Source of the DNA: Candidatus Cybelea sp.
Lineage (GTDB): Bacteria > Vulcanimicrobiota > Vulcanimicrobiia > Vulcanimicrobiales > Vulcanimicrobiaceae
Assembly (NCBI GenBank): GCA_049585055.1
Contig: JBAUYZ010000068.1
Location: 15,528 to 79,527 of the forward strand
Length of the DNA: 64,000 nt
Direction: 5' to 3'
In this document: positions 6,569 through 43,195 of the stretch, piece by piece
Layout: each line of letters opens with the position of its first letter
Numbering within the stretch: the stretch's first letter is position 1
Notes under the pieces: generated by a model
What the model saw: only the letters and a program-made list of their open reading frames with translations
The model's database searches: none
Told to the model about the DNA's origin: nothing
Position numbers and translations under genes: made by a program

Positions 6569-6624
6569 GTCGAGGACCAAGTAACGCAGCGGGGCGGTCG
6601 ATCGTGACCGCCCCGTTCGCGTTC

Positions 6625-7944: not shown

Positions 7945-8139
7945 CGGACTCCTCCATTAACGAGTATGGGAGGAGCGTAGCAGTGGTTGGAGGCGCTGTC
8001 GCCCACGTTCCGACGCTTCGGAGTACAAACGGACGGAGTTCGGCTAATGCGACGATAAGTACGGTATCCGATGGAACTGACGGCGATCGCCCGAAGATCC
8101 TTAGGCGTCGATCCGTTCTCGGATCAAGGAGCAAGGCAA

Positions 8140-9126
8140 GTGAAGGGCTTGGATTTCGGCCGCTATGTGTTAGGCGGCTTTGCTGCTGCGGCGATACTCG
8201 CGGGATGCGCCCTTCCCCTGAGCCTGTCGAAGGGTCAGGGTGACACGCAACAGCCCCCAGGCGCGTGGCTCCCGACGGCTTCTCAATCGGCCAGCCCGAA
8301 CAGACACGCCGTTTTAGCTGTGGCGAAATCGTTGCTGTATGTGGCGGATAGAACGACCGGTAGCGTCTACGTTCGAGCACTGCCGGGCGGTGCGCTCGTC
8401 CAAACGCTCTCAGGATTCCTCGAACCATACGGCGACTGCACCGACACCAAGGGCGACGTTTATATTACGGATTACGGAACGAGGGTCATTCGCGAGTACG
8501 CCCATGGTGCGGCGAACCCGATTCGCATCTTAACCGAGAGATACAGACCTTGGAGCTGCGCCGTTGATCCGCTAACTGGAGACTTGGCGGCGGCGAATGC
8601 CACGAACGAAGGTAGTCGAGGAATCGTGGCCATTTATTCGAGCGCCAAAGGCAGACCGGTTTACCGTTTTCGCAAGGGCCTTAGTTTTTTCTATTGCGCA
8701 TACGACAGCCAGGGAAACCTATTTCTCGACGGCCTCGGCCCAAGCGGAACGAGTGACGTCGGCCTGGTCGAACTTCGCAAGGGTCAAAGCGCCTTTACGA
8801 CGATCGCCCTCAATCAGAGTTTCACTTCGATCGGAGGCCTCGCGTGGAGAGGCACGCAAATGGCGGTCGGCGATCCAAAAAGTCAAATCATTTACAGTTT
8901 CAAGATGAGCGGGCAAAAGGGGGTCAAAACGGGTGGTACGCTCCTTACCGGCTCGGGCGAGCTAGGAGCGTTTTCGATCGCAAACAACGACGTCTACGTG
9001 CCGGCGGAGATCAAGGAATATCAGGGAGTCGTTCGAGTTTATCATTACCCGGCTGGCGGCCGACCGTATAGTACGTGGTTCGGTTTCGCCCTACCCACCG
9101 GTGTAGCGGTCAGCACGGTCAAATGA
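8140..9126 (+). CDS. family-A propeller-like lipoprotein (copy A1)
   Basis: A GTG start lies 8 nt after AAGGAG and aligns at nucleotide level with the start of copy A4. Lipobox AILAGC is present. Hallmark motifs are EYAHGAANP...CAVDPLTGDLA and C-terminal YHYPAGG. Confidence 0.8.
   Translation: MKGLDFGRYVLGGFAAAAILAGCALPLSLSKGQGDTQQPPGAWLPTASQSASPNRHAVLAVAKSLLYVADRTTGSVYVRALPGGALVQTLSGFLEPYGDCTDTKGDVYITDYGTRVIREYAHGAANPIRILTERYRPWSCAVDPLTGDLAAANATNEGSRGIVAIYSSAKGRPVYRFRKGLSFFYCAYDSQGNLFLDGLGPSGTSDVGLVELRKGQSAFTTIALNQSFTSIGGLAWRGTQMAVGDPKSQIIYSFKMSGQKGVKTGGTLLTGSGELGAFSIANNDVYVPAEIKEYQGVVRVYHYPAGGRPYSTWFGFALPTGVAVSTVK
8209..8252 (+). repeat. in-frame hairpin element after the lipobox codon
   Basis: CCCTTCCCCTGAGCCTGTCGAAGGGTC at 8210-8236 is identical to 9199-9225 and 13050-13076. 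It is followed by AGGGTGACACG, which resembles the intergenic repeat end TCAGGATGACACG. Confidence 0.75.
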
Positions 9127-10568
9127 GTTGGAGCGCGAATTTCGGCCGCTTAGCGACCGGCTGCTGCGTGGCTGCGGCAATGCTAGGAGGGTGCGGTGCC
9201 CTTCCCCTGAGCCTGTCGAAGGGTCCGGATGACGTGCAGCCGCCGATCGGCGTGCCGGGTGCGATGCCGCCGCGCATTAAGGATGCAGAGATCAGCCGAC
9301 CGACGAGCACGCTGAAACACATTGTGGTTGTGATTCAGGAGAATCGAACTTTCAACGATTTGTTCGCGAAGTTTCCTGGTGCCGACGGAACGACTCGAGG
9401 TCGACTTAAGAATACAAGCGGTCGCGGTTACACGTACATCGCGCTCAAAGAAGTCAATCTAGACGAGCATTGTGATTTCGGCCACGGGTACCAGGGCTTT
9501 CTGAAAAACTACGACGAGGGCGCGATGGATGGCTTTGGCCTGGTGGGCAATAAGTGTAACGGTAATCACCGAGCAGCATACCAGTACGTAAATCCTTCGC
9601 AGATTCAACCCTATTGGGACATGGCCCAGCAATACGTTCTTGGCGATCATATGTTTCAGACACAAGGCAGCGGAAGCTTTACTGCCCATCAAGACTTGAT
9701 CGCCGGGGCAACCATTATCGATCCGTACAAGACTGTAAGTCTGGTGGACTTTCCGACGCACACGCCGTGGGGCTGTGACGCGCCGCCGGGAAGCACGACG
9801 CCGAAACTGATTTGGACTGGCTCGCAGATTGTGAGCGGCCAAGGGCCGTTTCCGTGCCTCGGCTACTCAACGCTGCGCGATCTCCTCGATGCTAAAGGCG
9901 TGACGTGGAGGTACTACTCGCCCCCGATTCTAGGCCATCAACAACCTGAGGGTCGACTCTGGAATGCATTCGACGCGATCGACGCCGTACGGCACAGCAA
10001 AGAATGGGGCACGAACGTCACGTTTTCGAACGCTCTAATCTTTAAAGACATAACGAAGAACCAACTGCCGGCAGTGTCGTGGGTGATTCCGGATCGCGAG
10101 GAATCGGACCATCCGCAGTCGCCGTTCGGCGACGACGGCCCGTCATGGGTGGCGAGCATCGTCAACGCCATCGGAACGACGGCCTATTGGAACAACACGG
10201 CAATCGTCGTCGTGTGGGACGATTGGGGCGGTTTTTACGATCAGGTTTCGCCGCCGCTCACCGATCACTGGGGCGGCCTCGGATTTCGCGTGCCAATGAT
10301 CGTCGTTTCGGCCTATGCGCGGGAGCATCATAAGGGACAGCCCGGTTACATTACGCATACCAATTATGAGTTCGGAAGCATCCTGAAGTTCATCGAGCAC
10401 ACATTCGATCTGGGCACGCTGCATACGACCGATGAACGCGCCACCGGCATCGGCGACTGCTTCGACTTCACGCAGTCGCCGCGCACGTTCACAAAGATTC
10501 CATCGAGCAAGACCACGGAGTACTTCCTGCACACGCCGCCGTCGCAACTGCCGGTCGACACGGAATAG
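9123..10568 (+). CDS. phosphoesterase-family lipoprotein (PF04185; phospholipase C / AcpA-like acid phosphatase), PE1
   Basis: Motifs present: IVVVIQENRTFNDLF, SDHPQSP, GPSWVASIVNAIG, VVWDDWGGFYDQVSPP and FRVPMIVVSAYA. The ATG at 9123 overlaps the A1 stop codon (ATGA). Confidence 0.9.
   Translation: MSWSANFGRLATGCCVAAAMLGGCGALPLSLSKGPDDVQPPIGVPGAMPPRIKDAEISRPTSTLKHIVVVIQENRTFNDLFAKFPGADGTTRGRLKNTSGRGYTYIALKEVNLDEHCDFGHGYQGFLKNYDEGAMDGFGLVGNKCNGNHRAAYQYVNPSQIQPYWDMAQQYVLGDHMFQTQGSGSFTAHQDLIAGATIIDPYKTVSLVDFPTHTPWGCDAPPGSTTPKLIWTGSQIVSGQGPFPCLGYSTLRDLLDAKGVTWRYYSPPILGHQQPEGRLWNAFDAIDAVRHSKEWGTNVTFSNALIFKDITKNQLPAVSWVIPDREESDHPQSPFGDDGPSWVASIVNAIGTTAYWNNTAIVVVWDDWGGFYDQVSPPLTDHWGGLGFRVPMIVVSAYAREHHKGQPGYITHTNYEFGSILKFIEHTFDLGTLHTTDERATGIGDCFDFTQSPRTFTKIPSSKTTEYFLHTPPSQLPVDTE
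9198..9237 (+). repeat. in-frame hairpin element after the lipobox codon
   Basis: The same 27-mer as at 8210 and 13050. It encodes ALPLSLSKGPDDV between GCG and QPPIG. Confidence 0.75.
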
Positions 10569-10943: not shown

Positions 10944-11525
10944 CTATCGTTGTGTACAAAACTTTGCCACTGACGGGGATACCCGCCATGGTAGCGGTGC
11001 TAGGCGATTTCTTAGGACCTTGTAAGTATGCTCGAAGCGCGTTGAGCCATAGGGATACCTGACTATGGCCTGCTGGAACCCTCCGGCCGATTCACTTTCA
11101 ACGTAAAGGTTGTCGTCAACATCAACCGTCATCGTAGAAGAGAACCCGGGCGGATGATATTCGGCAATTTGGTAGTCAAGGCGATGCGTATACTCGCGCA
11201 CGGAGGAGAAGTTGTTCTTGGTGAACACGTCTGCGTAGACATGCCCTCGGCTGTCGGTGACGACGTCGACCGGGGCAAGAGTCTTGAAGGTCTTTTCGGC
11301 GACCTTATTGCCTGCTGGATCGAACGCGATGATAGCGTGCAGTCCAGGGTCGGCAACGTACAGGTAGCTGGAAACCGCGCCGGGCTCGGCGTGCGCTGCG
11401 ATCGCGGAGGTTTGCGGAACCTGGCCGGTCGCGCCGATCGGCGGCTGGGCTCCGGCGCAGCCCGCCAGCATCGCCACAGCCATACCGCTGCACAATGTGT
11501 AACGGCTAAAATGCAAGTTCTTCAT
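10944..11525 (-). CDS. short family-A-related lipoprotein (copy A2, 193 aa, possibly truncated)
   Basis: It has the leader AMLAGCAGAQPPIGATGQVPQ, followed by YLYVADPG...REYTH...VRYPYG blades. It ends at roughly half the family length. Confidence 0.55.
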   Translation of the reverse strand: MKNLHFSRYTLCSGMAVAMLAGCAGAQPPIGATGQVPQTSAIAAHAEPGAVSSYLYVADPGLHAIIAFDPAGNKVAEKTFKTLAPVDVVTDSRGHVYADVFTKNNFSSVREYTHRLDYQIAEYHPPGFSSTMTVDVDDNLYVESESAGGFQQAIVRYPYGSTRFEHTYKVLRNRLAPLPWRVSPSVAKFCTQR

Positions 11526-11579
11526 ATGCCTTGCTCATTGATCCGTGAATGGATCGGCGACCTCGAATTAGCGCGCATC

Positions 11580-12646
11580 CTATCCGTGCGGAGCGCGGCT
11601 GATCGTCACGCCCAATAAGCCGCTCAATTTGGGTACTTTTTTCGTTGGGCGGCCTGCTGCCGGATAATGCCAAAAGCCAAGTTGGCCTTCGACATGCCCC
11701 GTCGGTACGAGAACCGCATTTCCCTCGATCCAAGACTGAACTAGGCCATGCGCCAACCATTTCCTAAGTTTCGTGGTCCCCACTATCGTTGCCGTCGAGC
11801 CGGAAAAGCTCAAGCGATGAAGTTCGTATGATCTCTTATCTTGCTCCGCCAGGCTGATATACTTTCCATCCCATTGGATCTGTCTCGGTTCGGTGATGCT
11901 CTTGCGTAAGCTGAAGGTCGAAAACGAGCTGGAGCCTTTCGGAAGGTCCGCGAGATATATCTGATCGCCGCCTCCCGTACCGTCAACGAAGAGATTCCCC
12001 TTATCGTCGTAGCCGCAAAAATAGTAGTTTGAGAATTCGGGGTCCCGATAGACGGTTGGAGCGCCCGTTGCCTTCTTGTAGATCGCCACGTACCCTGGAC
12101 CACCGACGCTGTTGATGCTTGAGACTGCAAGGTTTCCGGTTAGTGAATCAACTGCGCATCCGAATGGCCACGTTTGCTTCTCAGGGAACGTTTGAATTGG
12201 TTGACTTCCGCCGTGCGCGTATTCGTAGACGTAGCCTTGCTTTCCGCCGTCGAGCGACGCCACGAAGACATCACCGGATGAGTCTGAGCACAGCCCCTGT
12301 TGGGACAGCGTATTGGCCGGCGCAAAGGACTCGATGAAGCGTCCTTCTGGGTACGATAAGATGTCAATAGCATCGCCCGAGGAGGCGGCGTAAATTAGGT
12401 CACCGGTGGTTTGACGAACAAGCTGAGGTTGCATTGGAGACGCCTGGAAGTAGTCTCTGCGCGCGCAGCGATCGGCGACTGCGTTCCCCCGCACCCTGCC
12501 AGAATTGCCGCAGCAGCAAAGCCGCGTAGATGAAATGAGAAGGCCGGTCCCCAAAAGGGCGACTTGCTAAAAGCGCCTTTGCGCACTCGAAGTGCATTGA
12601 AAGGGGACCGACGCATGAAGCAAAGCATAGCAGACCCGGGACGCAA
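11580..12646 (-). pseudogene. family-A lipoprotein (copy A3) with signal peptide and body in different frames
   Basis: The body ORF 11580-12554 contains YEYAHGGSQP...CAVDSLTGNLAV and WHYPAGG. The lipoprotein leader (GFAAAAILAGCGGTQSPIAA) sits in ORF 12395-12646. The two frames meet at a (GC)4 tract at 12459-12466. Confidence 0.7.
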
Positions 12647-12976
12647 AACAAAGCCTGCGCGGCGACCTGCAATTCAGCGAGCCGGGTTCGCGATCGGGGC
12701 CGACGTCAGCGACAATTCAGCGAAATCTGCGTGCTTGCCCGCGTCGCGCTCGAGGCGGGAACGCACTCCGAGCCGGTCACTAAGAGCAGCCAACGCTTGC
12801 TGCGAAAACCCCGTATAGCCAGCTATATGCCGAAAGCCGTGGCCAGCGTCGTTGCCGCCGCAAAGAGAAGCGAGGAAAAGGGCCGCGCCGCCACGCGCGA
12901 TGTCGCGCGGAGCCTGGGGGCTGAGCACCGAACGTTCTTAACCGCCGGTCCGTTCATGCAGCGAGGAGCAATGCAG

Positions 12977-13987
12977 ATGAAGAGCTTGGATTTTAGACAC
13001 TACGTGTTAGGCGGCTTTGCTGCTGCCGCATTGCTGGCAGGGTGCGGCGCCCTTCCCCTGAGCCTGTCGAAGGGTCAGAGTGACACCCAGCCGCCGATCG
13101 GCGCGCCGAGCGCGATGCGGCAAAGTCGCGCAATCGCTACGCACGCCGAGCGCAGCAGATCGTGGATGCTGCCGGAAGCGAAGAGCGAGGACTTGCTTTA
13201 CGTCTCAGACTATCAGAACGGAGTAATCGTCCTCTCCTACACACCGCCGCGGTTAAAGTACGTAGGATTCCTCTCTGAGCCGCAATGGGGCGAAGGCGAG
13301 TGCGTCGACAAAGCTCAGAACGTTTTTATCACCGGTAGCGCATATGACATTGTAGAGTACGCACACGGCGCGACGACCCCGAAAGCGATCCTAACCGATC
13401 CATTTGCTCTTCCCTTGAGTTGTTCTGTCGACCCAACGACCGGAAACCTCGCCGTCGTTGGCTACCCCGATCAGTTTCACAAAATTTACGGAGCTGCAAT
13501 CTTCAAAAAGGCGCGCGGGAAGCCCACGCTCTACGAGGACACAGGCTTCGCTGCTTTCGCGTGCACTTACGATAACGAAGGTAACCTGTTTCTCGACGGC
13601 AGCCTAACGAGCAGTGTCGCCATAGCTAAGTTGCAAAAAGGCAGTAGCACCTTTACAAACATTCCGCTCGAGCAATCGTTCAATGCGGTCGGCGGTATAC
13701 AGTGGGATGGTCAGTACGTCGCGGTTGGCGATTACTACAATGCAGTGATTTATGAGTTCGAGATCAACGGAAGCAGCGCGACGAAAGTTGGCTCCACGCC
13801 TTTAGGCGGCTCGGGTACGGTTCTACAGTTCTTCATTGACCGTGGCAGAGTGATCGTGCCCAGCACCTTTCAAAATTACTCCGGTTTCGTGAAGATCTTC
13901 GACTATCCAGCGGGCGGCGCAGCCAAGAGAACGCATGACGTTGGCAGCCCTAACGGAACCGTCGTTAGCCGCGCGCGACGCCACTAA
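12977..13987 (+). CDS. family-A propeller-like lipoprotein (copy A4)
   Basis: The ATG lies 8 nt after GAGGAG. The leader is MKSLDFRHYVLGGFAAAALLAGCG. Hallmarks EYAHGATTP...CSVDPTTGNLAV and FDYPAGG are present. Confidence 0.85.
   Translation: MKSLDFRHYVLGGFAAAALLAGCGALPLSLSKGQSDTQPPIGAPSAMRQSRAIATHAERSRSWMLPEAKSEDLLYVSDYQNGVIVLSYTPPRLKYVGFLSEPQWGEGECVDKAQNVFITGSAYDIVEYAHGATTPKAILTDPFALPLSCSVDPTTGNLAVVGYPDQFHKIYGAAIFKKARGKPTLYEDTGFAAFACTYDNEGNLFLDGSLTSSVAIAKLQKGSSTFTNIPLEQSFNAVGGIQWDGQYVAVGDYYNAVIYEFEINGSSATKVGSTPLGGSGTVLQFFIDRGRVIVPSTFQNYSGFVKIFDYPAGGAAKRTHDVGSPNGTVVSRARRH
13049..13088 (+). repeat. in-frame hairpin element after the lipobox codon
   Basis: The identical 27-mer (13050-13076) followed by AGAGTGACACC. 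It encodes ALPLSLSKGQSDT. Confidence 0.75.
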
Positions 13988-15211: not shown

Positions 15212-15548
15212 TGCTCCCTCGCTCCGATAAATCGATAGGCGGCTTGGAACATTCGGCGCTTAGCGCCGAGCCCCCGCAGGTAATGGGCATCGTGATCGCA
15301 TGTGTATTAAGTAGGCGCGTTCGTAGGGCAGGCTGTTCAAGCGATCGCAAGGGGTATCGCATGACGTTGTGCCAGCTGCGCGCCCGGAGGCTAAAAGCGC
15401 CGCGGAGCCCTGCGCGGCCATAGTCGCGGCTACTTATCGGATGTTGCGAATGGGGCCATTGTAAAGGCAGCGCTGCAATGCGACACGTTGAGATGCTTAG
15501 GCGAGCCGGCTCGTACGAACTGCGCGATCAACGCGTCGGTACAGGGCG

Positions 15549-16550: not shown

Positions 16551-17063
16551 GTGGAAAACCACTCCATTAGTACCTCGACCGTGAACTGGAGGCCAAAGCA
16601 TGGGCTGATCGGGTTGGTAATCTGCGTCCTCTGTGCGGAAGGGGTAGTCGCCGGGTTGGACCGATCATGTATGCTTTCATTCAACCTTGGCATCTTGGCT
16701 GGACAACTGCTAGTTTTGAATATGTTTGGCGCTCCAGAAATAATGGGTATGGTGGCTGGAATTCCGGCATTCTTAATCGCGGCGTTCCCCGACAACGTGA
16801 ATTTACGTCGCGATGGACTCTTCCTTGCGTTTACTTTACTAGCGATCGTAGCGATCGCTCTTGTCGCAGCCATGCGCGCAGGTTGGCAGGGATTTCTACT
16901 CTTCGTCGCGCTCATTGGCGCAGGATCACTACTGGGCTTTTGGACGCGAGCGTTGGAAGAGTTCCGGCAGTTCTGGTTGCCCATTGGCATTTTGTTGGCT
17001 CTCTCAGTAGCGGGCGTCATTTTCTTATATGGACACTATGGCCAGAACAACTGTTGGCCGTGA
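16551..17063 (+). CDS. hypothetical multi-pass membrane protein
   Basis: A 170-aa ORF with 4-5 hydrophobic helices. Local GC content is visibly lower than in the flanks. Confidence 0.5.
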   Translation: MENHSISTSTVNWRPKHGLIGLVICVLCAEGVVAGLDRSCMLSFNLGILAGQLLVLNMFGAPEIMGMVAGIPAFLIAAFPDNVNLRRDGLFLAFTLLAIVAIALVAAMRAGWQGFLLFVALIGAGSLLGFWTRALEEFRQFWLPIGILLALSVAGVIFLYGHYGQNNCWP

Positions 17064-17561
17064 AGGCTCGCGCAGCCACCCCGTTTCGCCCCGCAGCGCA
17101 CCAAGCGGCAATGCGACCGGCGCCCCATGAACGTTCCCTCTTTTGTCTAGCGGTGCGCGACACTCACGGTTACGCCGTACGCCGACGTCACAGAGATCGT
17201 GTTCACCGGCGACCCGCCGGCCGGATAGTTTGCCCTGTATCCAGAACTGCGCTACCATCTTCACGCCCTTAAGGACCGCCGCGCAAACTGCGAGGTTCGC
17301 GATCAGTGGGTCCGCAGAGCAGCTCCCCCGGGCGCTCAAGGTCGCAATCGGGCTAGCGCCGTCGTGGGCGAACTCGTAAAGGCACTGGGACGTCGAGATG
17401 AAGACGTCACCGACCTTATTCGAACACGCATGATCCGGCGATGAAAAATATCCCAGCGTTCCGTGCGCTTTGGCTCTTGGGTAGCTGTACACGAAGACCG
17501 CTTCCGGAGAGGTTACCGCGTAAAGCAAGTCTTGGTCGTAGCCGTCCGGCCTGCTCGGCAA
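17025..17561 (-). pseudogene. decayed family-A copy with an internal deletion
   Basis: QDLLYAVT...YEFAHDGASPIATL...CSADPLIANLAV jumps directly to AQFWIQG, a late-family motif. There is no signal peptide and the tail is Arg-rich. Confidence 0.5.
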
Positions 17562-32612: not shown

Positions 32613-32741
32613 CCGCTCGCCCTTCGCCCTGTGCGAAGCGCAGTCCTGAGCGGCGCCTGGTGAGACCGCTTCAGGCAGGGCCTTAACGTGGCGTTAATCG
32701 GCATGACGATAAACTAGAGCGTACCTACTCTCTATAAGGAG

Positions 32742-33776
32742 TTGTCTGTGAGAGCATTCCTGGTTCGCTGCTTCACCACGGTCGTCGTTGCCGCGGCCCT
32801 GACCCTGCCGGCCGTCGCGGCAACCCAGCTCACCGGTGCCGGATCGAGCTTCGACTACCCGTTTTTCTCGAAAGCCTTCTACATCTATAGTGAGAAGAAT
32901 CCGGAGGCGACGGTCAACTACCAGTCGATCGGCAGCGGCGGCGGCATCCAGCAGTTCACCGCCAAGAACGTCGACTTCGGTGCGACGGACGTGCCGATGA
33001 ACGCCGCGGAGCTCGCGCGCGCCGGTCAACCGGTGCTGCAGATACCGGTGGCGCTCGGCGGCGCGGCGGTCGCTTACAACGTACCCGGCGTGACCGCGAC
33101 GATTCGGTTGACCCGCCAGGTGCTCGTCGACATCTACCTGGGCAAGGTGCTCAAGTGGAACGATCCGCAGATCGCCAAACTGAACCACGGGGTCAATCTT
33201 CCCGACATGCCGATCGTCGTCGTGCACCGTTCCGATGGCTCGGGAACCAGTTATATCTTCACCGATTTCTTGAGCCGGGTTTCGGCCGAGTGGAAGAACA
33301 AGGTCGGCGTCGGTAAGAGCGTTTCGTGGCCGGCCCCAAGCGCGATCGGCGCCAAAGGGAACGAAGGTGTCGCGGGCCAGATTCGCAGCACCCCGGGAGC
33401 GATCGGTTACGTCGAACTGGCGTACGTCCTGGAAAATCATATGCCGGCGGCGATCTTGCAGAATCGCGCCGGGAAGTGGGTTGGCTGCACTCCCGAGAAC
33501 GTCGCGGCCGCCGCGGCTACCAAACCGAACGTGAGTCCCACGAACTTCTCGATCACCGACGCAGCGGGCGCGAGCTCGTATCCTATCTCGGGCTACTCCT
33601 GGGTCGTAGTCTACAAGAAACCGGCGGACGCAACGCGCGCCAAGGCACTCTACGACGTGCTCTCCTGGCTGGTCGGTCCCCAGGGACAATCGAATGCGAA
33701 GTCGGTCGACTACGTACCGTTGCCGGTAAACGTGCAGAACGCGGCCTCGGCAACGCTACGCCAAATGCAGCGCTGA
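32742..33776 (+). CDS. pstS: phosphate ABC transporter substrate-binding protein
   Basis: Motifs GAGSSFDYPFF, GSGGGIQQF and RSDGSGTSYIFTDFL are present. The likely start is the GTG at 32748, 6 nt after AAGGAG. Confidence 0.93.
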   Translation: MSVRAFLVRCFTTVVVAAALTLPAVAATQLTGAGSSFDYPFFSKAFYIYSEKNPEATVNYQSIGSGGGIQQFTAKNVDFGATDVPMNAAELARAGQPVLQIPVALGGAAVAYNVPGVTATIRLTRQVLVDIYLGKVLKWNDPQIAKLNHGVNLPDMPIVVVHRSDGSGTSYIFTDFLSRVSAEWKNKVGVGKSVSWPAPSAIGAKGNEGVAGQIRSTPGAIGYVELAYVLENHMPAAILQNRAGKWVGCTPENVAAAAATKPNVSPTNFSITDAAGASSYPISGYSWVVVYKKPADATRAKALYDVLSWLVGPQGQSNAKSVDYVPLPVNVQNAASATLRQMQR

Positions 33777-33780
33777 TTGC

Positions 33781-33976
33781 CGTTCGCCCTTCGTCCTTCG
33801 CCCTTCGACTTCGCTCGCTACGCTCGCTGCGCTCAGGATGACACAATTCGAGGTGACACGTTCGAGATGACACGTTTGGGATGACACGTTTGGGATGATA
33901 CGTTTGGGATGATACGTCCGAGATGACTGGTCCTTCGACTCCGCATCGCTTCGCGATGCTACGCTCAGGATGACAC
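33781..33976 (+). repeat. REP/MITE-like compound element filling the pstS-pstC gap, including about 7 tandem 14-nt GATGACACGTTTGG-type units
   Basis: A standard unit at 33781-33845 is followed by GGTGACACGTTCGA GATGACACGTTTGG GATGACACGTTTGG GATGATACGTTTGG GATGATACGTCCGA GATGACTGG, then a second standard unit ending at 33976. Confidence 0.9.
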
Positions 33977-33977
33977 G

Positions 33978-34916
33978 GTGGTAGAGCCGCAGTTTAGGCG
34001 CGTAGCGCGTTTCGTTAGTCCCGCCGATCGCGGCTTTGCTGCGGTGGTCTACGGCGGAAGCATTCTCTTTGCAGTGTTGATCGTCGGCCTCTTTGTCGAG
34101 CTGGTGCTCGGATCGTGGCCCTCGATTGTGACGTTCGGGCCCTCGTTCATTTGGAAGAGTTCCTGGGATCCGATAACGAGTAAGTTCGGGGCGCTCCCGA
34201 TGATCTACGGGACCGTGGTGACGTCGTTCATCGGGATCATCCTGGCCGCATTCGTCGGGATCATGGCGGCCGTCTTTCTCGCCGACTTCGCGCCGCGGTG
34301 GCTCGCGACGCCGCTCTCGTTCTTGATCGAGCTGCTGGCGGCGGTCCCGAGCGTCGTCTACGGCTTGTGGGGGCTCTTCGTGCTCTCGCCGTTCGTACGC
34401 ACCGTCATCGGACCGGCGCTCCAACACGTCCTGGGATGGACTCCGCTCTTCTCGGGGCCGATCTACGGCGTGGGCCTGCTGACCGCGGGCATTATTCTCG
34501 CCTTGATGATCGTTCCGACCGTCACGGCGATCTCGCGCGACGTGATCGCGGCGATACCGCGCGACCTGCGCGAAGCCTCAATGGCGCTCGGCTCGACGAG
34601 ATGGGAGACCGCGACGCGCGTGGTACTGCCCGCCGCGCGCGTGGGAATCTTCGGAGCTTGCGTACTCGCGCTGGGCCGCGCGCTCGGCGAGACGATCGCG
34701 GTGACGATGGTGATCGGCAACCGGCCGGAGATCTCCGCCTCACTCTTCGCGCCGTCGTATACGCTGGCTAGCGTAATCGCCAACGAGTTCACCGAGGCGA
34801 CGACCAGCATTTACATCAGCGCGCTGATCGAGTTGGGTCTGATCCTCTTCGTGGTGAGCATCGTCGTCAACGCGCTCGCGCGGTTCATGATCTGGAGCGT
34901 TCGGGGATCGCGATGA
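33978..34916 (+). CDS. pstC: phosphate ABC transporter permease PstC
   Basis: SWPSI lies near the N-terminus and the EAA-type loop [14 protein letters not shown] is present. The GTG start is 7 nt after AGGA, which belongs to the last repeat copy. Confidence 0.92.
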
Positions 34917-35773
34917 GCCTGCGCTATCAGCGGCTCGGTTACCGGAGGGCATACGGGTCGATCGGAACGGCGCTCGCTCTTTGCTGCGCGGCGCTTGCCG
35001 CCGGCGCGCTGCTCGCGATTCTCGGTTACGTCGTGGTGCAGGGCGCGGGCGCGATCAACTGGGCCTTTCTCACGCAGCTGCCGCACCCGATCGGCGTGCC
35101 GGGCGGGGGCGTCGGCAACGGCATACTCGGAACGATCATCATCATCGGCCTCGCGACGGCGATGGCCGTGCCGGTCGGCTTGCTCACCGGAATCTATCTC
35201 GCGCTCTTCGGACGAGGTGCGATTCCCGAAGCGCTGCGGTTTCTCTCCGACGTGCTCTCGGGTGTGCCGAGTATCGCAATCGGGCTCTTCGCGTACGCGG
35301 TGCTCGTCGCGCCGCTCAAACACTTCTCCGCAATCGCCGCGTCGTTCGCATTCATGATGCTGATGCTGCCGCTGCTCGTGCGGACGTCCGAGCAGGCGAT
35401 TCGCTCGGTGCCGCAGACCGTTCGCGAAGGCGCGCTCGCGCTGGGCATGTCAAACTTTCGCGCAACGGTTCACATCGTGCTGCCGACTGCGCGACCGGCG
35501 ATCATCACGGCGCTCTTGTTGGCGATCGCGAGAGTAACCGGCGAGACGGCGCCGCTGCTCTTTACCGCATTCGGCACTCAGTTCTGGGAGACGAATCCGA
35601 ACCACCCGATGGCGGTGCTCGCGCTGCAAGTCTTCAACTACGCGATCTCGCCCTATCCCAGCTGGCAGGCGCAGGCGTGGGCCGGCGCGCTCCTGCTCGT
35701 GGTCGCGGTCTTCATCTTGAGCTTGGGAGCACGCCTGATGCTCCGGCGCGCCATGCGGGGGCTCGACAGTTGA
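34913..35773 (+). CDS. pstA: phosphate ABC transporter permease PstA
   Basis: ATGA overlap with pstC. The EAA loop [15 protein letters not shown] is present. Confidence 0.92.
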
Positions 35774-35805
35774 CGGTCACCGAGGCGGCGGTCGGCGGTG
35801 CGGTG

Positions 35806-36576
35806 ATGAGCGATGCAGTGATGGCGACGCAGGAGTTGAGCGCGTATTACGGCGAGCGCAAAGCCGTCGGCGACGTCTCGATCGGATTCACGCGCAAGGC
35901 CGTGACGGCGCTGATCGGTCCGTCGGGGTGCGGGAAGACGACGCTCTTGCGATGCCTGAACCGGATTCATGAAGTGGGATTCGACGCGCGCGTGCAGGGG
36001 CGCGTGCTGCTCGACGGCCAGGATATCTATGCCGGCGGGATCGATCCGATGTCGATCCGCCGGCGCGTCGGAATGGTTTTTCAGCGCCCGAATCCCTTTC
36101 CGACGCTCTCGATTCTCGACAATACGCTGGTATGCGCGGCGAAGGGTCTCAATCGCCGGCAGAGGCTCGAATGCGCGGAGAAGGCCCTGCGAGCGGCGGC
36201 GCTCTGGGAAGAGGTAAAAGACAAGCTGCGCAGCAGCCCGTTGCGTCTCTCGGGCGGACAGCAGCAGCGGCTCTGCATTGCGCGCGCGGTCGCCGCGGAG
36301 CCGGATGTCTTGCTGATGGACGAGCCGACCGCCTCGCTCGACCCGATTGCGACGGCGATCATCGAGGAGCTGATGGCATCGCTCGCCGAGGAGTTTACAA
36401 TCGTGGCCGTGACGCATAACATGCAGCAAGCCGCACGCGTCTCAGATCGCACGGCGTTCATGCTCGCCGACGAAAGCGGCGTGGGAAAGTTGATCGAGAT
36501 CGACGACACGGCGAAGCTCTTCACCAAACCCAGCGACCGCAGAACCGAAGACTACATCACGGGCCGGTTCGGCTAA
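35806..36576 (+). CDS. pstB: phosphate ABC transporter ATP-binding protein
   Basis: Motifs [23 protein letters not shown] and LLMDEPTSALD-like are present. The in-frame ATG at 35806 gives 256 aa. The track ORF 34981-36576 is an artefactual 5' extension across pstA. Confidence 0.93.
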
Positions 36577-36683: not shown

Positions 36684-38075
36684 TTAGAAGTCGTCGTCGG
36701 GGGTGTTGTAGTCGATGGGCTGGTTTTCGAAATACGAGGCTGAGTATTTTGTTCGGATTTGCGTGAACGGACGCGGTTTGCGGTTGAAGCTGAAGCAGTC
36801 CGTGAGATCGTGCGAACGAACGTCGGTTCGTCCGAGCGATCCGAGATCGAACGTCTTCTCGATGAACTTCAGAATGCTGCCGAACTCGTAACGGACGTGA
36901 GAGACGTGCCCTTGCTTCGCATACGGCGAGATTACGATCAGCGGCACACGGAAGCCGTCCTCATAAGAGTTGTAGACCGTCGGCGGGACGTGGTCGTACC
37001 ATCCGCCCCAGTCATCCCAGATCACGAAAATCGCCGTGTTGCTCCAATACGGACTGTTGCCGATCGCGTTCACGATCGAGGCTACCCACGATGGACCGGT
37101 GCCGTTATTCTTAGCGGGATGATCCGACTCGTCCGAGCTCGGAGTGACGAACGTGACGTCGGAGAGTTGGCCGGCTGCGACGTCTTTCAAGACCTTCGAC
37201 GAGGGCCAAACTACGTTCTGGTACGACCGGCCTTGCCAGATTGGCTTGAGCGCGTCGACCGCGTGCCACTCTCCGGAGCCGTGAAACTCCTGATAGTAGT
37301 GCCAACTGACGCCCTTGACGTTCATTAGCCGGAAGATCGAGTCGCGAACGAAGCAGGGAAATACGGCCGTCGCTTCGTTTCCTTTCGGGTCGATCGTCAC
37401 GACCGTCGCGTCTTGTAGCGAATCGCATCCGCCTTGACGCTGACGCCCTTGCGGGTCGCTGGGGTTCTCGGCGGCCTTGAGGTTGGATCGATCGCTGATT
37501 GCCGACGTTGCGCTGACGATATACTGGTGCGCCGGGAAACTGGGACCCTGATTCGTCTGGAACATCCGGTCGCCGAAGGTGTACTGCCCGGCGAGGTCCC
37601 AGTACGGCTGGACGTCGCCGCGCGGCACGTACCCGTATGAAGCGACGTCGGCTCGCGGGCACTTGTAGCTGCTCTTCGAGTAACAGTTTTCGGTCTCGGT
37701 GTCAAAGCCGTCCATCTGCCCGTTGGCGTCGTCCTGCACCCAGGCCGAATGCTTGTGCGAGATATCGTAGGGTGCGGTCAGCGGAGTCGAGACGAGCTGC
37801 ACCGTCTGCCCGCGCGAGTTCTTCCCGGACTGCACGGTGTCGGCGCCCGGAAATCCGTTGAAGAGATTATCGACCGACCGATTCTCTTGAACGATGACAA
37901 CGACGTGCTTGATGCGATGCGCGTCGGGCTGTACGTCGGGCCGCAGTTGGATCAGCTGCGGGACGTTCTGCGGGGTGCCGAGCGGCGTTCCAAACGGAGA
38001 AGAACATCCGGCCGTCGCGAGCATCGCGGCAACGAGAACTGCTCCCGCTAGTCTACTTACACGGAATTGGATCAT
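36684..38075 (-). CDS. phosphoesterase-family lipoprotein (PF04185), PE2
   Basis: Lipobox ATAGC is present, with IKHVVVIVQENRSVDNLF, SDESDHP, GPSWVASIVNAIG, IWDDWGGWYDHVPP and FRVPLIVISPYA. Confidence 0.9.
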   Translation of the reverse strand: MIQFRVSRLAGAVLVAAMLATAGCSSPFGTPLGTPQNVPQLIQLRPDVQPDAHRIKHVVVIVQENRSVDNLFNGFPGADTVQSGKNSRGQTVQLVSTPLTAPYDISHKHSAWVQDDANGQMDGFDTETENCYSKSSYKCPRADVASYGYVPRGDVQPYWDLAGQYTFGDRMFQTNQGPSFPAHQYIVSATSAISDRSNLKAAENPSDPQGRQRQGGCDSLQDATVVTIDPKGNEATAVFPCFVRDSIFRLMNVKGVSWHYYQEFHGSGEWHAVDALKPIWQGRSYQNVVWPSSKVLKDVAAGQLSDVTFVTPSSDESDHPAKNNGTGPSWVASIVNAIGNSPYWSNTAIFVIWDDWGGWYDHVPPTVYNSYEDGFRVPLIVISPYAKQGHVSHVRYEFGSILKFIEKTFDLGSLGRTDVRSHDLTDCFSFNRKPRPFTQIRTKYSASYFENQPIDYNTPDDDF

Positions 38076-38135: not shown

Positions 38136-39206
38136 TTACTTTGTGCTCACGGCTGCACCGAGCGGTTCGACGAGGCCGGCGCCGGCGTTGTAGTTGGTCG
38201 GTGTGCCGCCCGCATCGTATGGCCAGCGGTTCGCCGTGGTCGCGGTATAACCGCACGATTCATAATCGGAACCGGCGATATATCGCTGACCGTTCGCGGC
38301 GATGACGCCTCCGGCGAGGTCGCAGACCGCGCCGCCCTGGTAGTTGGTAAGGTTGGTCGTGCCGGTAATCGTTGCGGTCGAACCCGAGAGGGAGAGCCAA
38401 TAGATGCACGAGGATGGGCTGCCGCCGCACGCCTGATCGCCGAGCGCAAGGTAATTGCCGCTGCGGTACCACTGAATCATGCCCGATACATGGAGCGTCC
38501 CGCCGCTCAGGCTTATCAACTGCGTGGTGCTGCCGCCGGCCGGAAGTTCGGCGAAATAGCTGGTGACGCGGCTCGAATCCATTCCGTCGAAGAAGAGGTT
38601 GCCCGCGTTATCGTAGCCGACGAAGAAGTAGAGATAAAAGCTGGGGTTCGTATAGGTCGTGGGGGTGCCCGACGCGTTGGCGAAGACCATCAGGTTGCCG
38701 GCGCCTCCGCTCGTGCTTTCGATATTCGTGACGGCGAGGTCGTTGGTCGATTTGTTGACCGCGCAGCCGGCCGGATACTCGCCGTACACGCTGAGCGTCT
38801 TGAGCAGCGCTCCGGTGCGCGAGTAGAGCTGCATCGCCGAAGCGCCGGTGTTTGCGACCCAGATGTTCCCGCCGGCATCGGCGCAGTCGCCTTCGGGGAA
38901 ACTGAGCCCGGTGAGTTGCCCCTTGAGTGCCATGCCCGGCATGGTAAAGATGTCGACGTCGCCGGCGCCATAATCGGAAATGAAGAGCAAGCGCGGCGCG
39001 AGCTTCGCGTCGGGCGCTATCCAACTGGCGCGGTGATTCAGGCGCGCGGCGGAGACGGATCGCGGCGCCGGTGCCGGCGCCATTGCGCCGCGGATAGTCG
39101 CGGGCGAGACGGCGGCGGGCGTGGACCCTTGCTGCGAGGCGTTGCCGCAGGCCGCGAGCATGGCTGCGGCGGCGGCGAGTGAGATCGAAATGGCGAGCTT
39201 CTTCAT
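38136..39206 (-). CDS. family-A-related propeller-like lipoprotein (copy A7, divergent)
   Basis: Lipobox MLAACG is present. The blocks CAVNKSTNDLAVTN, FFVGYDNAGNLFFDG and AELPAGGSTTQLISL align with the A-family blocks. It lies 60 nt upstream of PE2 on the same strand. Confidence 0.75.
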   Translation of the reverse strand: MKKLAISISLAAAAAMLAACGNASQQGSTPAAVSPATIRGAMAPAPAPRSVSAARLNHRASWIAPDAKLAPRLLFISDYGAGDVDIFTMPGMALKGQLTGLSFPEGDCADAGGNIWVANTGASAMQLYSRTGALLKTLSVYGEYPAGCAVNKSTNDLAVTNIESTSGGAGNLMVFANASGTPTTYTNPSFYLYFFVGYDNAGNLFFDGMDSSRVTSYFAELPAGGSTTQLISLSGGTLHVSGMIQWYRSGNYLALGDQACGGSPSSCIYWLSLSGSTATITGTTNLTNYQGGAVCDLAGGVIAANGQRYIAGSDYESCGYTATTANRWPYDAGGTPTNYNAGAGLVEPLGAAVSTK

Positions 39207-39281: not shown

Positions 39282-40730
39282 TTGGAAGCCGGGATACAGG
39301 AGGAAACGCTGGTTTCCAAGCTGTTGCTCGTACCGATTCTCGCCGGTCTCGTGTTCTGCGCGGGCTGCTCGTCATACGGCAGCCTCTCGCCCCGCGGCGC
39401 GGCCTCGCTGCCCATGCGGGGAGAGCGTTCCGCGGCGCGGGCAACCGGGGATGTGGTGCGGCGGCATATCAAGCACGTCATCGTGATCATCCAGGAGAAC
39501 CGAAGCTTCGAGAACCTCTTCGCCGGATATCCCGGAGCCGACGCGCCGATGACCGGCTGTGCGCGGGGAAGCGCCCCCGATTTCGTAGAGCACTCCGGCG
39601 CTATGGTTCATTGTCCAAAAGGCGATACGGCCGTGCCGCTCCACCAAGTGACCTTTAAGAACAACCCCGATCTTCCGCATAACTGGGGCGCTGCGATCCG
39701 GGATTGGGACGACGGCAAGATGGATGGCTTCTCCGAGTTTGGGAAGAAACCGGACGCGGCCTACGCGTATCTCGAGCGCTCCCAGGTTGCGCCGTACTGG
39801 ACGATGGCCGCGCAGTACGTGCTCGCCGACAAGATGTTTCCGACCGAGTTCGGCGGGAGCTTCACCGCGCATCTGACCCTGGTCGCCGGCACCGACGATC
39901 TCGAGCTTCCGTCGACCGCCGAAGTCGATTTTCCCAATGCCGCGCCCGACGACTGCGATTCACCGCCCGGCACGAAGAGCTCGTACATTACCGAAAACCG
40001 CACGGTCCATTACTACAAGGGCCCGTTCCCGTGCTTCGATCAGTTCAATACGATCGCCGAGGTGCTCGATAAGGCGAGCGTTTCGTGGAAGATCTACGCG
40101 ACGCGCGTGCTCGACGGCGGATTCTGGGAGCCGTTCGAGGGGATCAAGTACGTGCGCTACGGTCCCGACTGGCCGGGTGATATCGTCGCTCCGCAGACGA
40201 GGATTTTGACGGATCCGGCGAGCGGCAACTTGGCCGACGTAAGCTGGGTGACGCCCGACTACGCCGACTCCGATCACCCGGCGCATCATAGCGATCGAGG
40301 ACCGTCGTGGGTTGCCTCGATCGTGAACGCAATCGGCGAGAGTTCCTACTGGCGTTCGAGCGCGATCGTGATTCTGTGGGACGATTGGGGCGGCTTTTAC
40401 GATGACGCCTCCCCGCCGCAGCTCGACTATCGCGGGCTTGGCATTCGGGTGCCCTGTCTAATCGTGTCGCCGTATGCGAAGCAGGGTCACGTTTCGAGCG
40501 CGCAATACGAGTACGGCAGCATTCTTCGATTCATCGAAGAGGTTAACGGCCTCCGCGCGGGCAGCATCGGACCGGTTAAAAAGGGCTATACGGACGGCCG
40601 CGCGACCGGCCTCGAAGATGCCTTCGACTTCAACCAAAAACCGCGCGCGTTCTCGCCGATTCCGACGAAGTATCCGGCCTCGTATTTCCTGCACGAGCGG
40701 CCCTCGAACGAACCGCTCGATACGGAGTAG
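39282..40730 (+). CDS. phosphoesterase-family lipoprotein (PF04185), PE3
   Basis: Lipobox FCAGC is present, with IKHVIVIIQENRSFENLF, ADSDHP, GPSWVASIVNAIG, LWDDWGGFYDDASPP and IRVPCLIVSPYA. The exact start is uncertain: TTG at 39282 or CTG at 39309 after AGGAGG. Confidence 0.88.
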   Translation: MEAGIQEETLVSKLLLVPILAGLVFCAGCSSYGSLSPRGAASLPMRGERSAARATGDVVRRHIKHVIVIIQENRSFENLFAGYPGADAPMTGCARGSAPDFVEHSGAMVHCPKGDTAVPLHQVTFKNNPDLPHNWGAAIRDWDDGKMDGFSEFGKKPDAAYAYLERSQVAPYWTMAAQYVLADKMFPTEFGGSFTAHLTLVAGTDDLELPSTAEVDFPNAAPDDCDSPPGTKSSYITENRTVHYYKGPFPCFDQFNTIAEVLDKASVSWKIYATRVLDGGFWEPFEGIKYVRYGPDWPGDIVAPQTRILTDPASGNLADVSWVTPDYADSDHPAHHSDRGPSWVASIVNAIGESSYWRSSAIVILWDDWGGFYDDASPPQLDYRGLGIRVPCLIVSPYAKQGHVSSAQYEYGSILRFIEEVNGLRAGSIGPVKKGYTDGRATGLEDAFDFNQKPRAFSPIPTKYPASYFLHERPSNEPLDTE

Positions 40731-40733
40731 GCC

Positions 40734-43170: not shown

Positions 43171-43195
43171 GCCAACTGGAATACAGGAGCAGCCG

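What the first reader, a model, noticed from the sequence alone, without database searches (positions are those of the whole stretch)
8140..10568. Recurrent, translationally coupled gene pair: family-A propeller-like lipoprotein followed by a PF04185 phosphoesterase
A1 (8140-9126) and PE1 (9123-10568) overlap by ATGA. The same order and orientation recur on the other strand, with A7 (39206-38136) followed 60 nt later by PE2 (38075-36684). Both partners are lipoproteins, and in the first pair they share the same leader cassette. The same uncharacterised partner sits upstream of two different phosphoesterase subtypes. This suggests a functional two-component surface module, for example substrate capture or presentation plus hydrolysis. 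I do not know of such a module being described for PLC/AcpA-type enzymes.
Basis: partly seen in the sequence, partly recalled or inferred. Interest (0 to 1): 0.68.

Follow-up and report, generated by a model that had tools for sequence, protein, structure and literature searches.

The report
Propeller lipoprotein beside phosphoesterase genes
Two side-by-side pairs of a beta-propeller lipoprotein gene and an AcpA-type phosphoesterase gene are really present in this Eremiobacterota (Candidatus Cybelea) genome, but about 175 related loci show two expanded gene families that cluster loosely in any order, not a conserved two-part machine.

Summary
A1 (8140-9126) and PE1 (9123-10568) overlap by ATGA. 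A7 (39206-38136) is followed 60 nt later by PE2 (38075-36684). All four have lipoboxes. The PEs are PF04185 proteins with the AcpA catalytic residues. A1 and A7 model as six-bladed NHL/YWTD-type propellers.

The pairing is not a conserved unit.
- The window holds 5 PE and 8 family-A genes, and only 2 form A->PE pairs.
- In 80 family-A loci from about 50 Eremiobacterota genomes and 86 PE-anchored loci, A-PE adjacency recurs. Family A is the commonest non-self neighbour of PE, with 10 of 129 slots. The order is as often PE->A as A->PE, and convergent and divergent pairs also occur.
- Five of the six closest PE1 relatives have no upstream A. In the sixth, the upstream A is not orthologous to A1.
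- A7 orthologs keep one position beside pstSCAB, while PE genes there are present, reordered or absent.
- Paired members do not cluster phylogenetically.

Best reading: these are co-transcribed neighbours inside fast-turnover regions of exported-lipoprotein paralogs. The PEs most likely scavenge phosphate. A facultative partnership is not excluded. Interest is low to moderate.

The parts
8140..9126 (+). A1: family-A lipoprotein, six-bladed NHL/YWTD-type beta-propeller
   Evidence: ORF. GTG start after AAGGAG and lipobox ILAGC. AF2 pLDDT 85.5. Foldseek top hits are Pizza6/NHL, nidogen and LRP6. No Pfam or NCBIfam hit.
9123..10568 (+). PE1: PF04185 AcpA-type phosphoesterase lipoprotein; its start overlaps the A1 stop (ATGA)
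   Evidence: Pfam E 7.7e-54. Best PDB match is 2D1G, Francisella AcpA, E 6e-22. Catalytic-site equivalents E73, N74, S185, H330, D366 and D367 are invariant.
38136..39206 (-). A7: conserved subfamily of family A (orthologs 60-81% identical), six-bladed NHL-type propeller lipoprotein
   Evidence: AF2 pLDDT 84.3. Foldseek top hits are Pizza6, TRIM71, LRP6 and TolB. Profile against PDB: Pizza6 6e-24, PknD sensor 6e-11.
36684..38075 (-). PE2: PF04185 phosphoesterase lipoprotein, 60 nt downstream of A7 and convergent with pstB
   Evidence: No terminator or structure in the spacer.
39282..40730 (+). PE3: PF04185 lipoprotein, divergent from A7 across a 75-nt intergenic region
40734..42065 (+). PE4: PF04185 lipoprotein, 3 nt after PE3
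42205..44170 (+). Two canonical NHL-repeat propeller lipoproteins (42205-43170 and 43142/43196-44170) following PE4
   Evidence: Pfam NHL E 1.5e-18 and 4e-12. Distant similarity to family A.
49821..51281 (-). PE5: PF04185 gene, the closest paralog of PE1 (48%), with no family-A neighbour and a different leader
12977..13987 (+). Unpaired family-A paralog, closest to A1 (43%), carrying the same 28-nt leader segment
14234..15211 (-). Unpaired family-A paralog
58734..59726 (+). Unpaired family-A paralog
10944..12646 (-). Decayed family-A copies: a truncated copy (10944-11525), and a copy (11580-12554) whose leader lies in another frame (12395-12646)
   Evidence: ORF translations. BLASTP.
17025..17561 (-). 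Truncated family-A fragment
32742..36576 (+). pstS-pstC-pstA-pstB phosphate ABC transporter operon, convergent on PE2
   Evidence: ORFs. Orthologs are 78-95% identical and sit in the same backbone in seven other loci (L027, L069, L100, L140, L171, L172/L173, L176); L175 retains only pstB.
8209..8236 (+). 28-nt leader segment (part of a 33-nt in-frame insert encoding ALPLSLSKGQ). Identical copies lie at 9198-9225 (PE1) and 13049-13076.

Best explanation
The two pairs are genuine adjacent genes and are probably co-transcribed in this Candidatus Cybelea genome. They are not a dedicated two-component module.

Each PE is a lipid-anchored, extracytoplasmic AcpA-type phosphoesterase of PF04185 with an intact metal and nucleophile site. 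It most likely releases phosphate, or phosphorylated head groups, from organic phosphorus compounds. For PE2, PE3 and PE4, the product would be taken up by the PstSCAB transporter encoded next door.

Each A protein is a lipid-anchored six-bladed NHL-type beta-propeller with no conserved catalytic motif. It most likely acts as a binding scaffold.

Both families are greatly expanded in Eremiobacterota and accumulate in the same variable, fast-turnover regions. Those regions show tandem arrays, pseudogenes, lower G+C and a shared recombining 5' leader module. As a result the two families often end up side by side, in any order and orientation.

Shown: the gene structures, the folds, conservation of the catalytic residues, and the neighbourhood statistics. 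Inferred: co-transcription, the phosphate-scavenging role, a non-catalytic role for A, and recombination or duplication as the cause of clustering.
For: Enzyme identity:
- Pfam PF04185 for five genes.
- The best solved relative is AcpA, 2D1G.
- E/N, S, H and DD positions are invariant.

Propeller:
- The AF2 models are confident.
- Foldseek and profile hits go to binding propellers, not enzymes.
- The A1-type motif EYAHGG is not shared by the A7 type. Only structural residues are invariant across the family.

Family expansion:
- At least 588 family-A genes occur in GTDB Eremiobacterota genomes.
- 3,491 cluster representatives match at E <= 1e-30.
- PE genes cover 24% of the bases next to other PE genes.

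No fixed pairing:
- Orientations are evenly mixed.
- PE coverage around A genes has no adjacency peak: 3.6% adjacent against 4.6-5.9% at 1.2-4 kb.
- A-gene neighbours are otherwise very diverse.
- The closest PE1 and A1 relatives are unpaired.
- A7 orthologs occur in the conserved adh|A7...pstB slot with a variable number of PE genes, or none.
- Paired members show no phylogenetic clustering.

Turnover:
- Three decayed A copies are present.
- G+C is 56-58% at 8-18 kb against 61-65% elsewhere.
- The PE1 leader is homologous to family-A leaders, unlike the leader of its closest paralog PE5.
Against: - Family A is nonetheless the single most common non-self neighbour of PE genes. It shows a 2-3-fold adjacency peak on the PE side, and a purely passive model does not require that peak.
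- The 4-nt overlap suggests selection for coupled expression in this genome.
- A and PE co-occur near pst in several genomes.
- Genome-wide copy numbers could not be measured, so enrichment over a true genomic background is only estimated.
- The PE-anchored loci come from metagenomes of unknown taxonomy. That dilutes the adjacency rates.
- No expression or biochemical data exist.
Confidence: 0.6

Rival explanations
1. Facultative, mix-and-match partnership. Propeller lipoproteins bind or present organic-phosphorus substrates, or dock the enzyme at the envelope, for AcpA-type phosphoesterases. Any A can serve any PE, so selection keeps them close but not in a fixed order.
For: - A is the top non-self neighbour of PE (10 of 129 slots). 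The next most frequent families are sulfotransferase (4) and GNAT (3).
- A coverage is 6.2% within 1.2 kb of PE, against 2-3% beyond.
- Spacing is tight in both orders in other genomes.
- PE4 is followed by other NHL propellers.
- A and PE genes recur beside the pst operon.
- The PF04185 superfamily already has one enzyme-partner precedent, PlcH-PlcR (PMC3601568).
Against: - About 88% of PE genes and about 92% of A genes lack the other family next door.
- A7 orthologs persist without any PE within 8 kb.
- PE1 orthologs persist without A.
- Partners are not co-inherited.
- No A-PE fusion was seen among the best family-A hits. The long proteins among them are propeller-propeller tandems.
- The conserved pstS upstream motif is absent from A and PE promoters.
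Confidence: 0.25
2. Obligate two-component surface module. A and PE act as a fixed, translationally coupled capture-plus-hydrolysis unit.
For: - ATGA overlap.
- The same order appears twice in the window.
- The arrangement is conserved in the closest relatives: L171 for A7-PE2, with both proteins about 80% identical, and L091 for PE1.
Against: - The order is reversed or the pairing is absent at only slightly greater divergence.
- Orientations are evenly mixed across about 170 loci.
- The upstream A in L091 is not A1's ortholog, at 34% identity.
- 3 of 5 PE genes and 6 of 8 A genes in the window itself are unpaired.
Confidence: 0.05
3. Sequential-enzyme pathway. The propeller is itself a calcium-dependent hydrolase of the SMP-30/gluconolactonase/DFPase kind. 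It would convert phosphotriesters, phosphodiesters or lactones into substrates for the phosphoesterase.
For: - A7 has weak PF08450 (SGL) similarity, 22.4 bits.
- Some A7 orthologs are named SMP-30/gluconolactonase/LRE in NCBI.
- Regucalcin appears weakly in the profile search, E 0.013.
Against: - The SGL score is below Pfam's cut-off, and A1 has no hit at all.
- No SGL-type enzyme is among the top 50 structural matches for either model.
- No acidic or histidine motif is conserved across the family.
Confidence: 0.05

Closest known systems
Francisella tularensis AcpA (PDB 2D1G) and Burkholderia-type acid phosphatases, PF04185
   Same: - Same Pfam family and the best solved-structure match.
- Similar length, about 445-485 aa, with no Pfam hit to the extra C-terminal domain of the larger PLCs.
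- The residues aligned to AcpA E43, N44, S175, H350, D386 and D387 are invariant in all five PE genes. Their catalytic roles are recalled from Felts et al. 2006, which I could not read here.
   Different: - Scores are far below the NCBIfam cut-offs for acid_phos_Burk (132-143 bits against 362) and PC_PLC (104-138 against 580). These genes therefore form a separate subfamily whose substrate is unknown.
- They are predicted lipoproteins.
- They are present in five copies per 64 kb, often in tandem.
Pseudomonas aeruginosa PlcH-PlcR1/R2 (plcHR)
   Same: A PF04185-superfamily enzyme is co-expressed with a neighbouring, overlapping accessory gene, and the two products form a complex (PMC3601568). 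A partner module for this enzyme superfamily is therefore already described.
   Different: - PlcR lies downstream of the enzyme. It is a 17-23 kDa putative calcium-binding chaperone, not a propeller.
- PlcH is exported folded through Tat. Here the partner lies upstream, is a 33-kDa propeller, and both proteins carry Sec/SPII lipoprotein leaders.
- No complex is shown here.
[quoted passage not shown]
   Same: - Same fold and one recognisable NHL blade.
- pknD is a predicted operon partner of pstS2 (PMC3322341), which loosely parallels A7's conserved position beside pstSCAB.
   Different: - Family A proteins are free-standing lipoproteins with no kinase.
- Pfam NHL is below threshold for A7 and absent for A1.
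- The pst parallel is an analogy only. A7 is convergent with pstB, not in its operon.

Membership tests
PF04185 phosphoesterase (AcpA / PLC superfamily) | Pfam domain above the gathering score over the full domain | tested here: met
   PE1 to PE5 score 167-199 bits against a cut-off of 23, covering profile positions 1-356.
PF04185 phosphoesterase (AcpA / PLC superfamily) | Active-site residues equivalent to AcpA E43, N44, S175 (nucleophile), H350, D386 and D387 | tested here: met
   The HMMER alignment to 2D1G places them at PE1 E73, N74, S185, H330, D366 and D367. All six are invariant in the five paralogs. The roles of these residues are recalled from the literature and were not re-read here.
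NCBIfam TIGR03397 acid_phos_Burk / TIGR03396 PC_PLC | Score above the curated cut-off | tested here: not met
   132-143 bits against 362.75, and 104-138 bits against 580.25. The genes are not members of either named subfamily, so monoesterase versus PLC activity stays open.
PF04185 phosphoesterase (AcpA / PLC superfamily) | Phosphoesterase activity | not testable with these tools
   Requires an enzyme assay.
NHL-repeat beta-propeller (PF01436) | Pfam NHL repeats above the gathering score | tested here: not met
   A1 has no hit. A7 scores 17.5 bits against a cut-off of 20. By contrast, the two propellers at 42205-44170 pass clearly.
NHL-repeat beta-propeller (PF01436) | Six-bladed propeller fold resembling solved NHL/YWTD propellers | tested here: met
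   AF2 pLDDT is 85.5 and 84.3, with about 24 strands. Foldseek probability is 1.00 to Pizza6, Brat/TRIM71 NHL, nidogen and LRP6. The profile hits the PknD sensor at 6e-11.
SMP-30/gluconolactonase/LRE (PF08450) | Pfam score above the cut-off, and a metal-binding site in the central tunnel | tested here: not met
   A7 scores 22.4 bits against 26.3, and A1 has no hit.
Bacterial lipoprotein (SPII substrate) | N-terminal hydrophobic segment ending in a lipobox L-[AS]-[GA]-C | tested here: met
   Read directly from the sequence: A1 ILAGC, PE1 MLGGC, A7 MLAAC, PE2 ATAGC, PE3 FCAGC, PE4 LSAC and PE5 VLAC. No dedicated predictor was available. Surface versus periplasmic location was not testable.
Operon with translational coupling | Same strand, with stop-start overlap or a short spacer lacking a terminator | tested here: met
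   ATGA overlap. The 60-nt spacer has no terminator-like site and no stable fold. Whether the genes are actually co-transcribed was not testable.
   - A-anchored loci give 3 A->PE, 3 PE->A, 2 convergent and 2 divergent pairs.
- PE anchors give 4 A->PE, 5 PE->A and 1 convergent.
- The closest PE1, A1 and A7 relatives are mostly unpaired or re-ordered.
- Paired members do not cluster phylogenetically.
PlcH-PlcR type enzyme-chaperone pair | A small calcium-binding partner encoded downstream, and a Tat-exported enzyme | tested here: not met
   The partner here is upstream, is a 328-356 aa propeller, and both proteins carry lipoprotein leaders without a twin-arginine motif.

The most novel reading that the evidence does not exclude
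Eremiobacterota may use a modular envelope system for organic-phosphorus acquisition. In it, members of a huge, lineage-specific family of NHL-type propeller lipoproteins would act as interchangeable substrate-binding or docking partners for AcpA-type phosphoesterase lipoproteins. The genes would be kept near each other, and often near pstSCAB, but freely shuffled. A shared recombining 5' UTR, leader and 33-nt insert module would drive the shuffling.
Probability: 0.15. Interest if true: 0.6.

Novelty: new member of a known kind. Interest (0 to 1): 0.3.

Why it matters
If the loose association reflects function, it would assign a first role to a very large uncharacterised protein family: about 3,500 clusters at 50% identity, with no Pfam or NCBIfam model for A1-like members. 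That family belongs to a globally abundant and barely cultured soil and peat phylum. It would also add an accessory-protein concept to AcpA-type phosphatases.

As it stands, the useful result is negative. The tidy 'translationally coupled module' seen in one genome dissolves when related genomes are compared, so it should not be propagated as a conserved system. The multiple lipid-anchored AcpA-type enzymes beside pstSCAB fit phosphate scavenging in phosphorus-poor acidic habitats, which is an ordinary explanation.

Tried and rejected
- **Family-A alignment scan.** The genome scan with the 30-sequence family-A alignment failed because no stretch was conserved enough. It was repeated with 8 closer sequences.
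- **Gene callers.** Two home-made gene callers mis-called starts or split genes. I used tblastn-anchored A and PE features plus a simple composition-based caller for the other neighbours. Counts of neighbours other than A and PE are therefore approximate.
- **Pho box.** A strongly conserved direct-repeat motif, CTTAAC-N5-GTTAATCG, lies upstream of pstS in 7 genomes. Its only copy in the window is at pstS itself. The other two matches, each with 3 mismatches, are at chance level. There is thus no evidence that A and PE genes share that control.
- **Known RNA elements.** Rfam finds only tRNA-Val at 62011-62082.
- **Promoter and terminator scans.** They gave nothing informative.
- **Enzyme-like propeller.** This reading was considered and set aside.
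- **A-PE fusion proteins.** None was found among the longest of the best 150 family-A hits; these long hits are propeller tandems. Only the best 150 hits could be inspected.
- **Literature.** No paper in the library links Eremiobacterota to these phosphatases. The AcpA structure paper is not held.
- **Complex prediction.** This was not possible with the tools, which predict single chains only.
Full report
**1. Observation**

The window has 61% G+C. A1 is 100% identical to a hypothetical protein of a Candidatus Cybelea sp. MAG (Eremiobacterota, Baltobacteraceae).

A1 runs from GTG 8140, preceded by AAGGAG, to TGA 9126. PE1 starts at ATG 9123, so stop and start share ATGA. On the other strand A7 (39206-38136) is followed after 60 nt by PE2 (38075-36684). 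That spacer has no terminator-like site, and its fold is no more stable than shuffled sequence (z = +0.65).

All four proteins begin with a hydrophobic segment ending in a lipobox. The coordinates and the description are therefore correct.

GenBank's gene calls for A1 (261 aa) and PE1 (444 aa) start downstream of the leaders. The longer starts are supported because the leader is homologous at the DNA level across several paralogs.

**2. What the proteins are**

PE1 and PE2 are PF04185 proteins, as are three further genes: PE3 39282-40730, PE4 40734-42065 and PE5 49821-51281. The best solved relative is Francisella AcpA, 2D1G (E 6e-22). The residues aligned with AcpA's E43/N44, S175, H350 and D386/D387 are invariant in all five paralogs. 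The roles of those residues are recalled from Felts et al. 2006, which I could not read.

The five genes fall well below NCBIfam's cut-offs for both the Burkholderia-type acid phosphatase and the phosphocholine-specific PLC. Monoesterase versus PLC specificity is therefore open. They split into two subtypes, PE1/3/5 and PE2/4, so 'two different subtypes' is right.

A1 has no Pfam or NCBIfam hit, and A7 has only sub-threshold SGL and NHL hits. AlphaFold2 models of both are confident (pLDDT 85.5 and 84.3) and show six-bladed propellers. Foldseek and profile searches match NHL/YWTD binding propellers: the PknD-derived Pizza designs, Brat/TRIM71, nidogen, LRP6 and TolB. They do not match propeller enzymes.

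The A1-type motif EYAHGG is not shared with the A7 subfamily, and only structural residues are invariant across the family. I therefore regard family A as a divergent NHL-type binding propeller.

**3. Context inside the window**

Family A has eight copies:
- Five are intact: A1, 12977-13987, 14234-15211, A7 and 58734-59726.
- One has its leader in a different frame: 11580-12554, with the leader at 12395-12646.
- Two are truncated: 10944-11525 and 17025-17561.

Only two copies precede a PE. Of the five PE genes, only two follow an A.

A7 is also divergently adjacent to PE3. PE3-PE4 is followed by two canonical NHL propellers (42205-44170). The central cluster therefore reads PE2 <- A7 | PE3 -> PE4 -> NHL -> NHL, and it abuts pstSCAB (32742-36576).

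The A1 region (8-18 kb) has 56-58% G+C, against 61-65% elsewhere.

With 8 A and 5 PE genes among about 60, at least two directed A->PE pairs arise by chance with P = 0.036. At least three adjacencies of any kind arise with P = 0.13. What stands out is that both families are enriched in the same region. The pairing itself does not.

**4. Survey anchored on family A**

A motif scan of GTDB species genomes found at least 588 family-A genes. The 80 loci kept come from about 50 assemblies, all labelled Eremiobacterota/Vulcanimicrobiota except one labelled Babeliales.

tblastn with the window's PE proteins finds PE genes in 22 of 80 loci. It finds ten A-PE adjacencies closer than 400 nt: 3 A->PE, 3 PE->A, 2 convergent and 2 divergent.

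Of 144 close neighbour slots around the anchors, 13 hold another A and 6 hold a PE. The remaining neighbours are highly diverse: TPR/AAA regulators 6, Na/H exchanger 4, SGL/NHL 4, then a long tail.

PE coverage is 3.6% of bases next to the anchor, 4.6-5.9% at 1.2-4 kb and 0.7-2.4% beyond. This is a neighbourhood effect with no adjacency peak.

**5. Survey anchored on PE**

I examined 86 loci: five close PE1 relatives looked up individually, plus 80 metagenome loci.

Of 129 close neighbour slots, 28 hold another PE and 10 hold a family-A gene. The ten split as 5 PE->A, 4 A->PE and 1 convergent. The next most frequent families are sulfotransferase (4) and GNAT (3).

Family-A coverage is 6.2% within 1.2 kb and 2-3% further out. 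Family A is thus the commonest non-self neighbour of PE. About seven in eight PE genes nevertheless lack one, and the reverse order is at least as common as the order seen in the window.

**6. Closest relatives of each partner**

- **PE1.** Its relatives at 66-78% identity have unrelated upstream genes: an alpha/beta hydrolase, a holin-like protein, an MFS transporter, DUF6582 and a 2OG-Fe(II) oxygenase. One close relative in a different locus, L091 (77% identical; 76%), has an upstream A. That A is only 34% identical to A1 and is equally distant from all window paralogs.
- **A1.** Its best relatives are only 50% and 46% identical. They are followed by a convergent TPM phosphatase and by a GNAT gene. 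In the second case a truncated PF04185 gene lies one gene further on.
- **A7.** It belongs to a much better conserved subfamily, with many hits at 60-81% identity. It occupies a conserved backbone: phaC-adh-adh | A7 ... pstB-pstA-pstC-pstS-thrS. Within that slot the arrangements are:
  - window and L171 (81%): PE4 <- PE3 | A7 -> PE2;
  - L172/L173 (73%): a non-orthologous PE upstream of A7;
  - L175 (66%) and L176 (71%): no PE within 8 kb.
- A further relative, L174 (71%), lies elsewhere and has no PE.

A7 is the stable resident of this slot, and the PE genes come and go.

A nearest-relative test shows that paired members are not phylogenetically clustered. For A, 3 were observed against 3.1 expected (P = 0.59). 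For PE, 5 against 3.5 (P = 0.29).

**7. The shared leader**

The exact 28-mer GCCCTTCCCCTGAGCCTGTCGAAGGGTC occurs in A1, in PE1 and in the unpaired paralog at 12977. Aligning the leaders shows it to be part of a 33-nt in-frame insert directly after the lipobox cysteine. The insert is absent from other, otherwise homologous leaders.

The same insert, with one mismatch, is present in a family-A gene of another species (L052). Its peptide also occurs in two more homologs.

PE1's first 50 or so residues are homologous to family-A leaders (E 2e-7), while its closest paralog PE5 has a different leader. The shared leader therefore shows that unrelated lipoprotein genes of this lineage exchange 5' modules. 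It is not evidence for a pair-specific function.

**8. Interpretation**

The most likely account (about 0.6) is as follows. The pairs are co-transcribed neighbours. The PEs are lipid-anchored phosphoesterases that most plausibly liberate phosphate for uptake by Pst. The propellers are binding proteins of unknown ligand. The adjacency reflects the accumulation of both expanded families in the same fast-turnover regions.

A facultative, mix-and-match partnership remains possible (about 0.25), because A is the top non-self neighbour of PE with a 2-3-fold adjacency peak. An obligate module, and a two-enzyme pathway, are each unlikely (about 0.05).

No evidence links the A and PE promoters to the conserved pstS upstream motif. 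No A-PE fusion was seen among the best family-A hits.

'Surface' location is unproven. The one cultured member of the phylum is diderm (PMC9758169).

**9. Comparison with what is known, and verdict**

The PEs are new members of PF04185 close to AcpA. Family A is a very large, unmodelled branch of NHL-type propellers, with 3,491 cluster representatives at E <= 1e-30.

A partner module in this enzyme superfamily is already known, PlcH-PlcR (PMC3601568), but it differs in every structural respect. An NHL propeller next to pst genes has a loose precedent in M. tuberculosis pknD-pstS2 (PMC3322341).

The module interpretation is at most partly supported. Interest is low to moderate (0.3).

Noticed in passing
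window 8209-8241, 9198-9230, 13049-13081; L052 about 2301-2345: A 33-nt in-frame insert sits immediately after the lipobox Cys codon. Its core is CCCTTCCCCTGAGCCTGTCGAAGGG, it encodes ALPLSLSKGQ, and it has 6-nt terminal inverted repeats CCCTTC/GAAGGG. It is identical in three genes of two unrelated families and absent from otherwise homologous leaders. It also occurs with one mismatch in a family-A gene of another species. Conservation at the DNA level across species suggests a mobile or converted mini-cassette, or selection on the nucleotide sequence.
   Followed up: partly
window 8060-8139, 12900-12976, 58650-58733, 15212-15290 (-), 11526-11600 (-): Family-A paralogs that are only 30-43% identical as proteins share a conserved block of about 75 nt upstream of the start: ...GGGGCT.AGC.CCGAAyGTTCTAAGCCGCCGATCCGTTCAC..CAAGGAGCAAGGCAGATGAAG. 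The 5' UTR and leader evolve in concert, or carry a regulatory element. Rfam finds nothing there.
   Followed up: partly
window 32682-32700; the same position in L027, L069, L100, L140, L172, L176: A direct-repeat motif CTTAAC-N5-GTTAATCG, followed by ATTACAACTAGAAC, is conserved upstream of pstS in seven genomes. It is a candidate Pho-box and promoter for this lineage. No other significant copy occurs in the window.
   Followed up: partly
window 36684-47554; L171, L172/L173, L175, L176, L027: There is a conserved backbone phaC-adh-adh ... pstBACS-thrS, with a variable slot between adh and pstB. The A7 ortholog is the constant occupant of the slot. PE genes, other propellers, an epoxide hydrolase and DUF4331 vary between genomes.
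   Followed up: yes
window 10944-12646 (-), 17025-17561 (-): Decayed family-A copies are present. Two are truncated. One has a leader (12395-12646) and a propeller (11580-12554) in different frames, which is either a pseudogene or an assembly frameshift.
   Followed up: partly
window 8140-8340 and 9123-9233: The deposited annotation (P0001 261 aa; P0083 444 aa) starts A1 and PE1 downstream of their signal peptides. The public records therefore miss the lipoprotein leaders and the gene overlap.
   Followed up: partly
window 25352-27814 (-); neighbours in L001-L080: Large HTH_31 / NB-ARC-AAA / TPR (STAND-type) regulators, like the 820-aa protein in the window, are among the most frequent neighbours of family-A genes in other genomes (6 of 117 scanned neighbours).
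   Followed up: no
L033 (DASRXM010000058.1); P0137, P0150, P0164: A contig labelled Candidatus Babeliales carries typical Eremiobacterota family-A and PE genes. Close PE1 homologs (about 60% identical) are labelled Acidoferrales, Binatia and Nitrosotalea. Either binning or labelling is wrong, or this PE subfamily spreads beyond the phylum.
   Followed up: no
P0323-P0334, P0348, P0453: Many family-A representatives are 550-920 aa proteins holding two or three propeller units in tandem. These are either fused genes or merged gene calls of tandem arrays.
   Followed up: partly
window 6625-7944 (-), 4409-5713 (+), 5702-6580 (-): Just upstream of A1 lie a DUF3466-like lipoprotein, an AraC-family regulator and another 434-aa lipoprotein with no Pfam match. 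All sit in the low-G+C segment.
   Followed up: no
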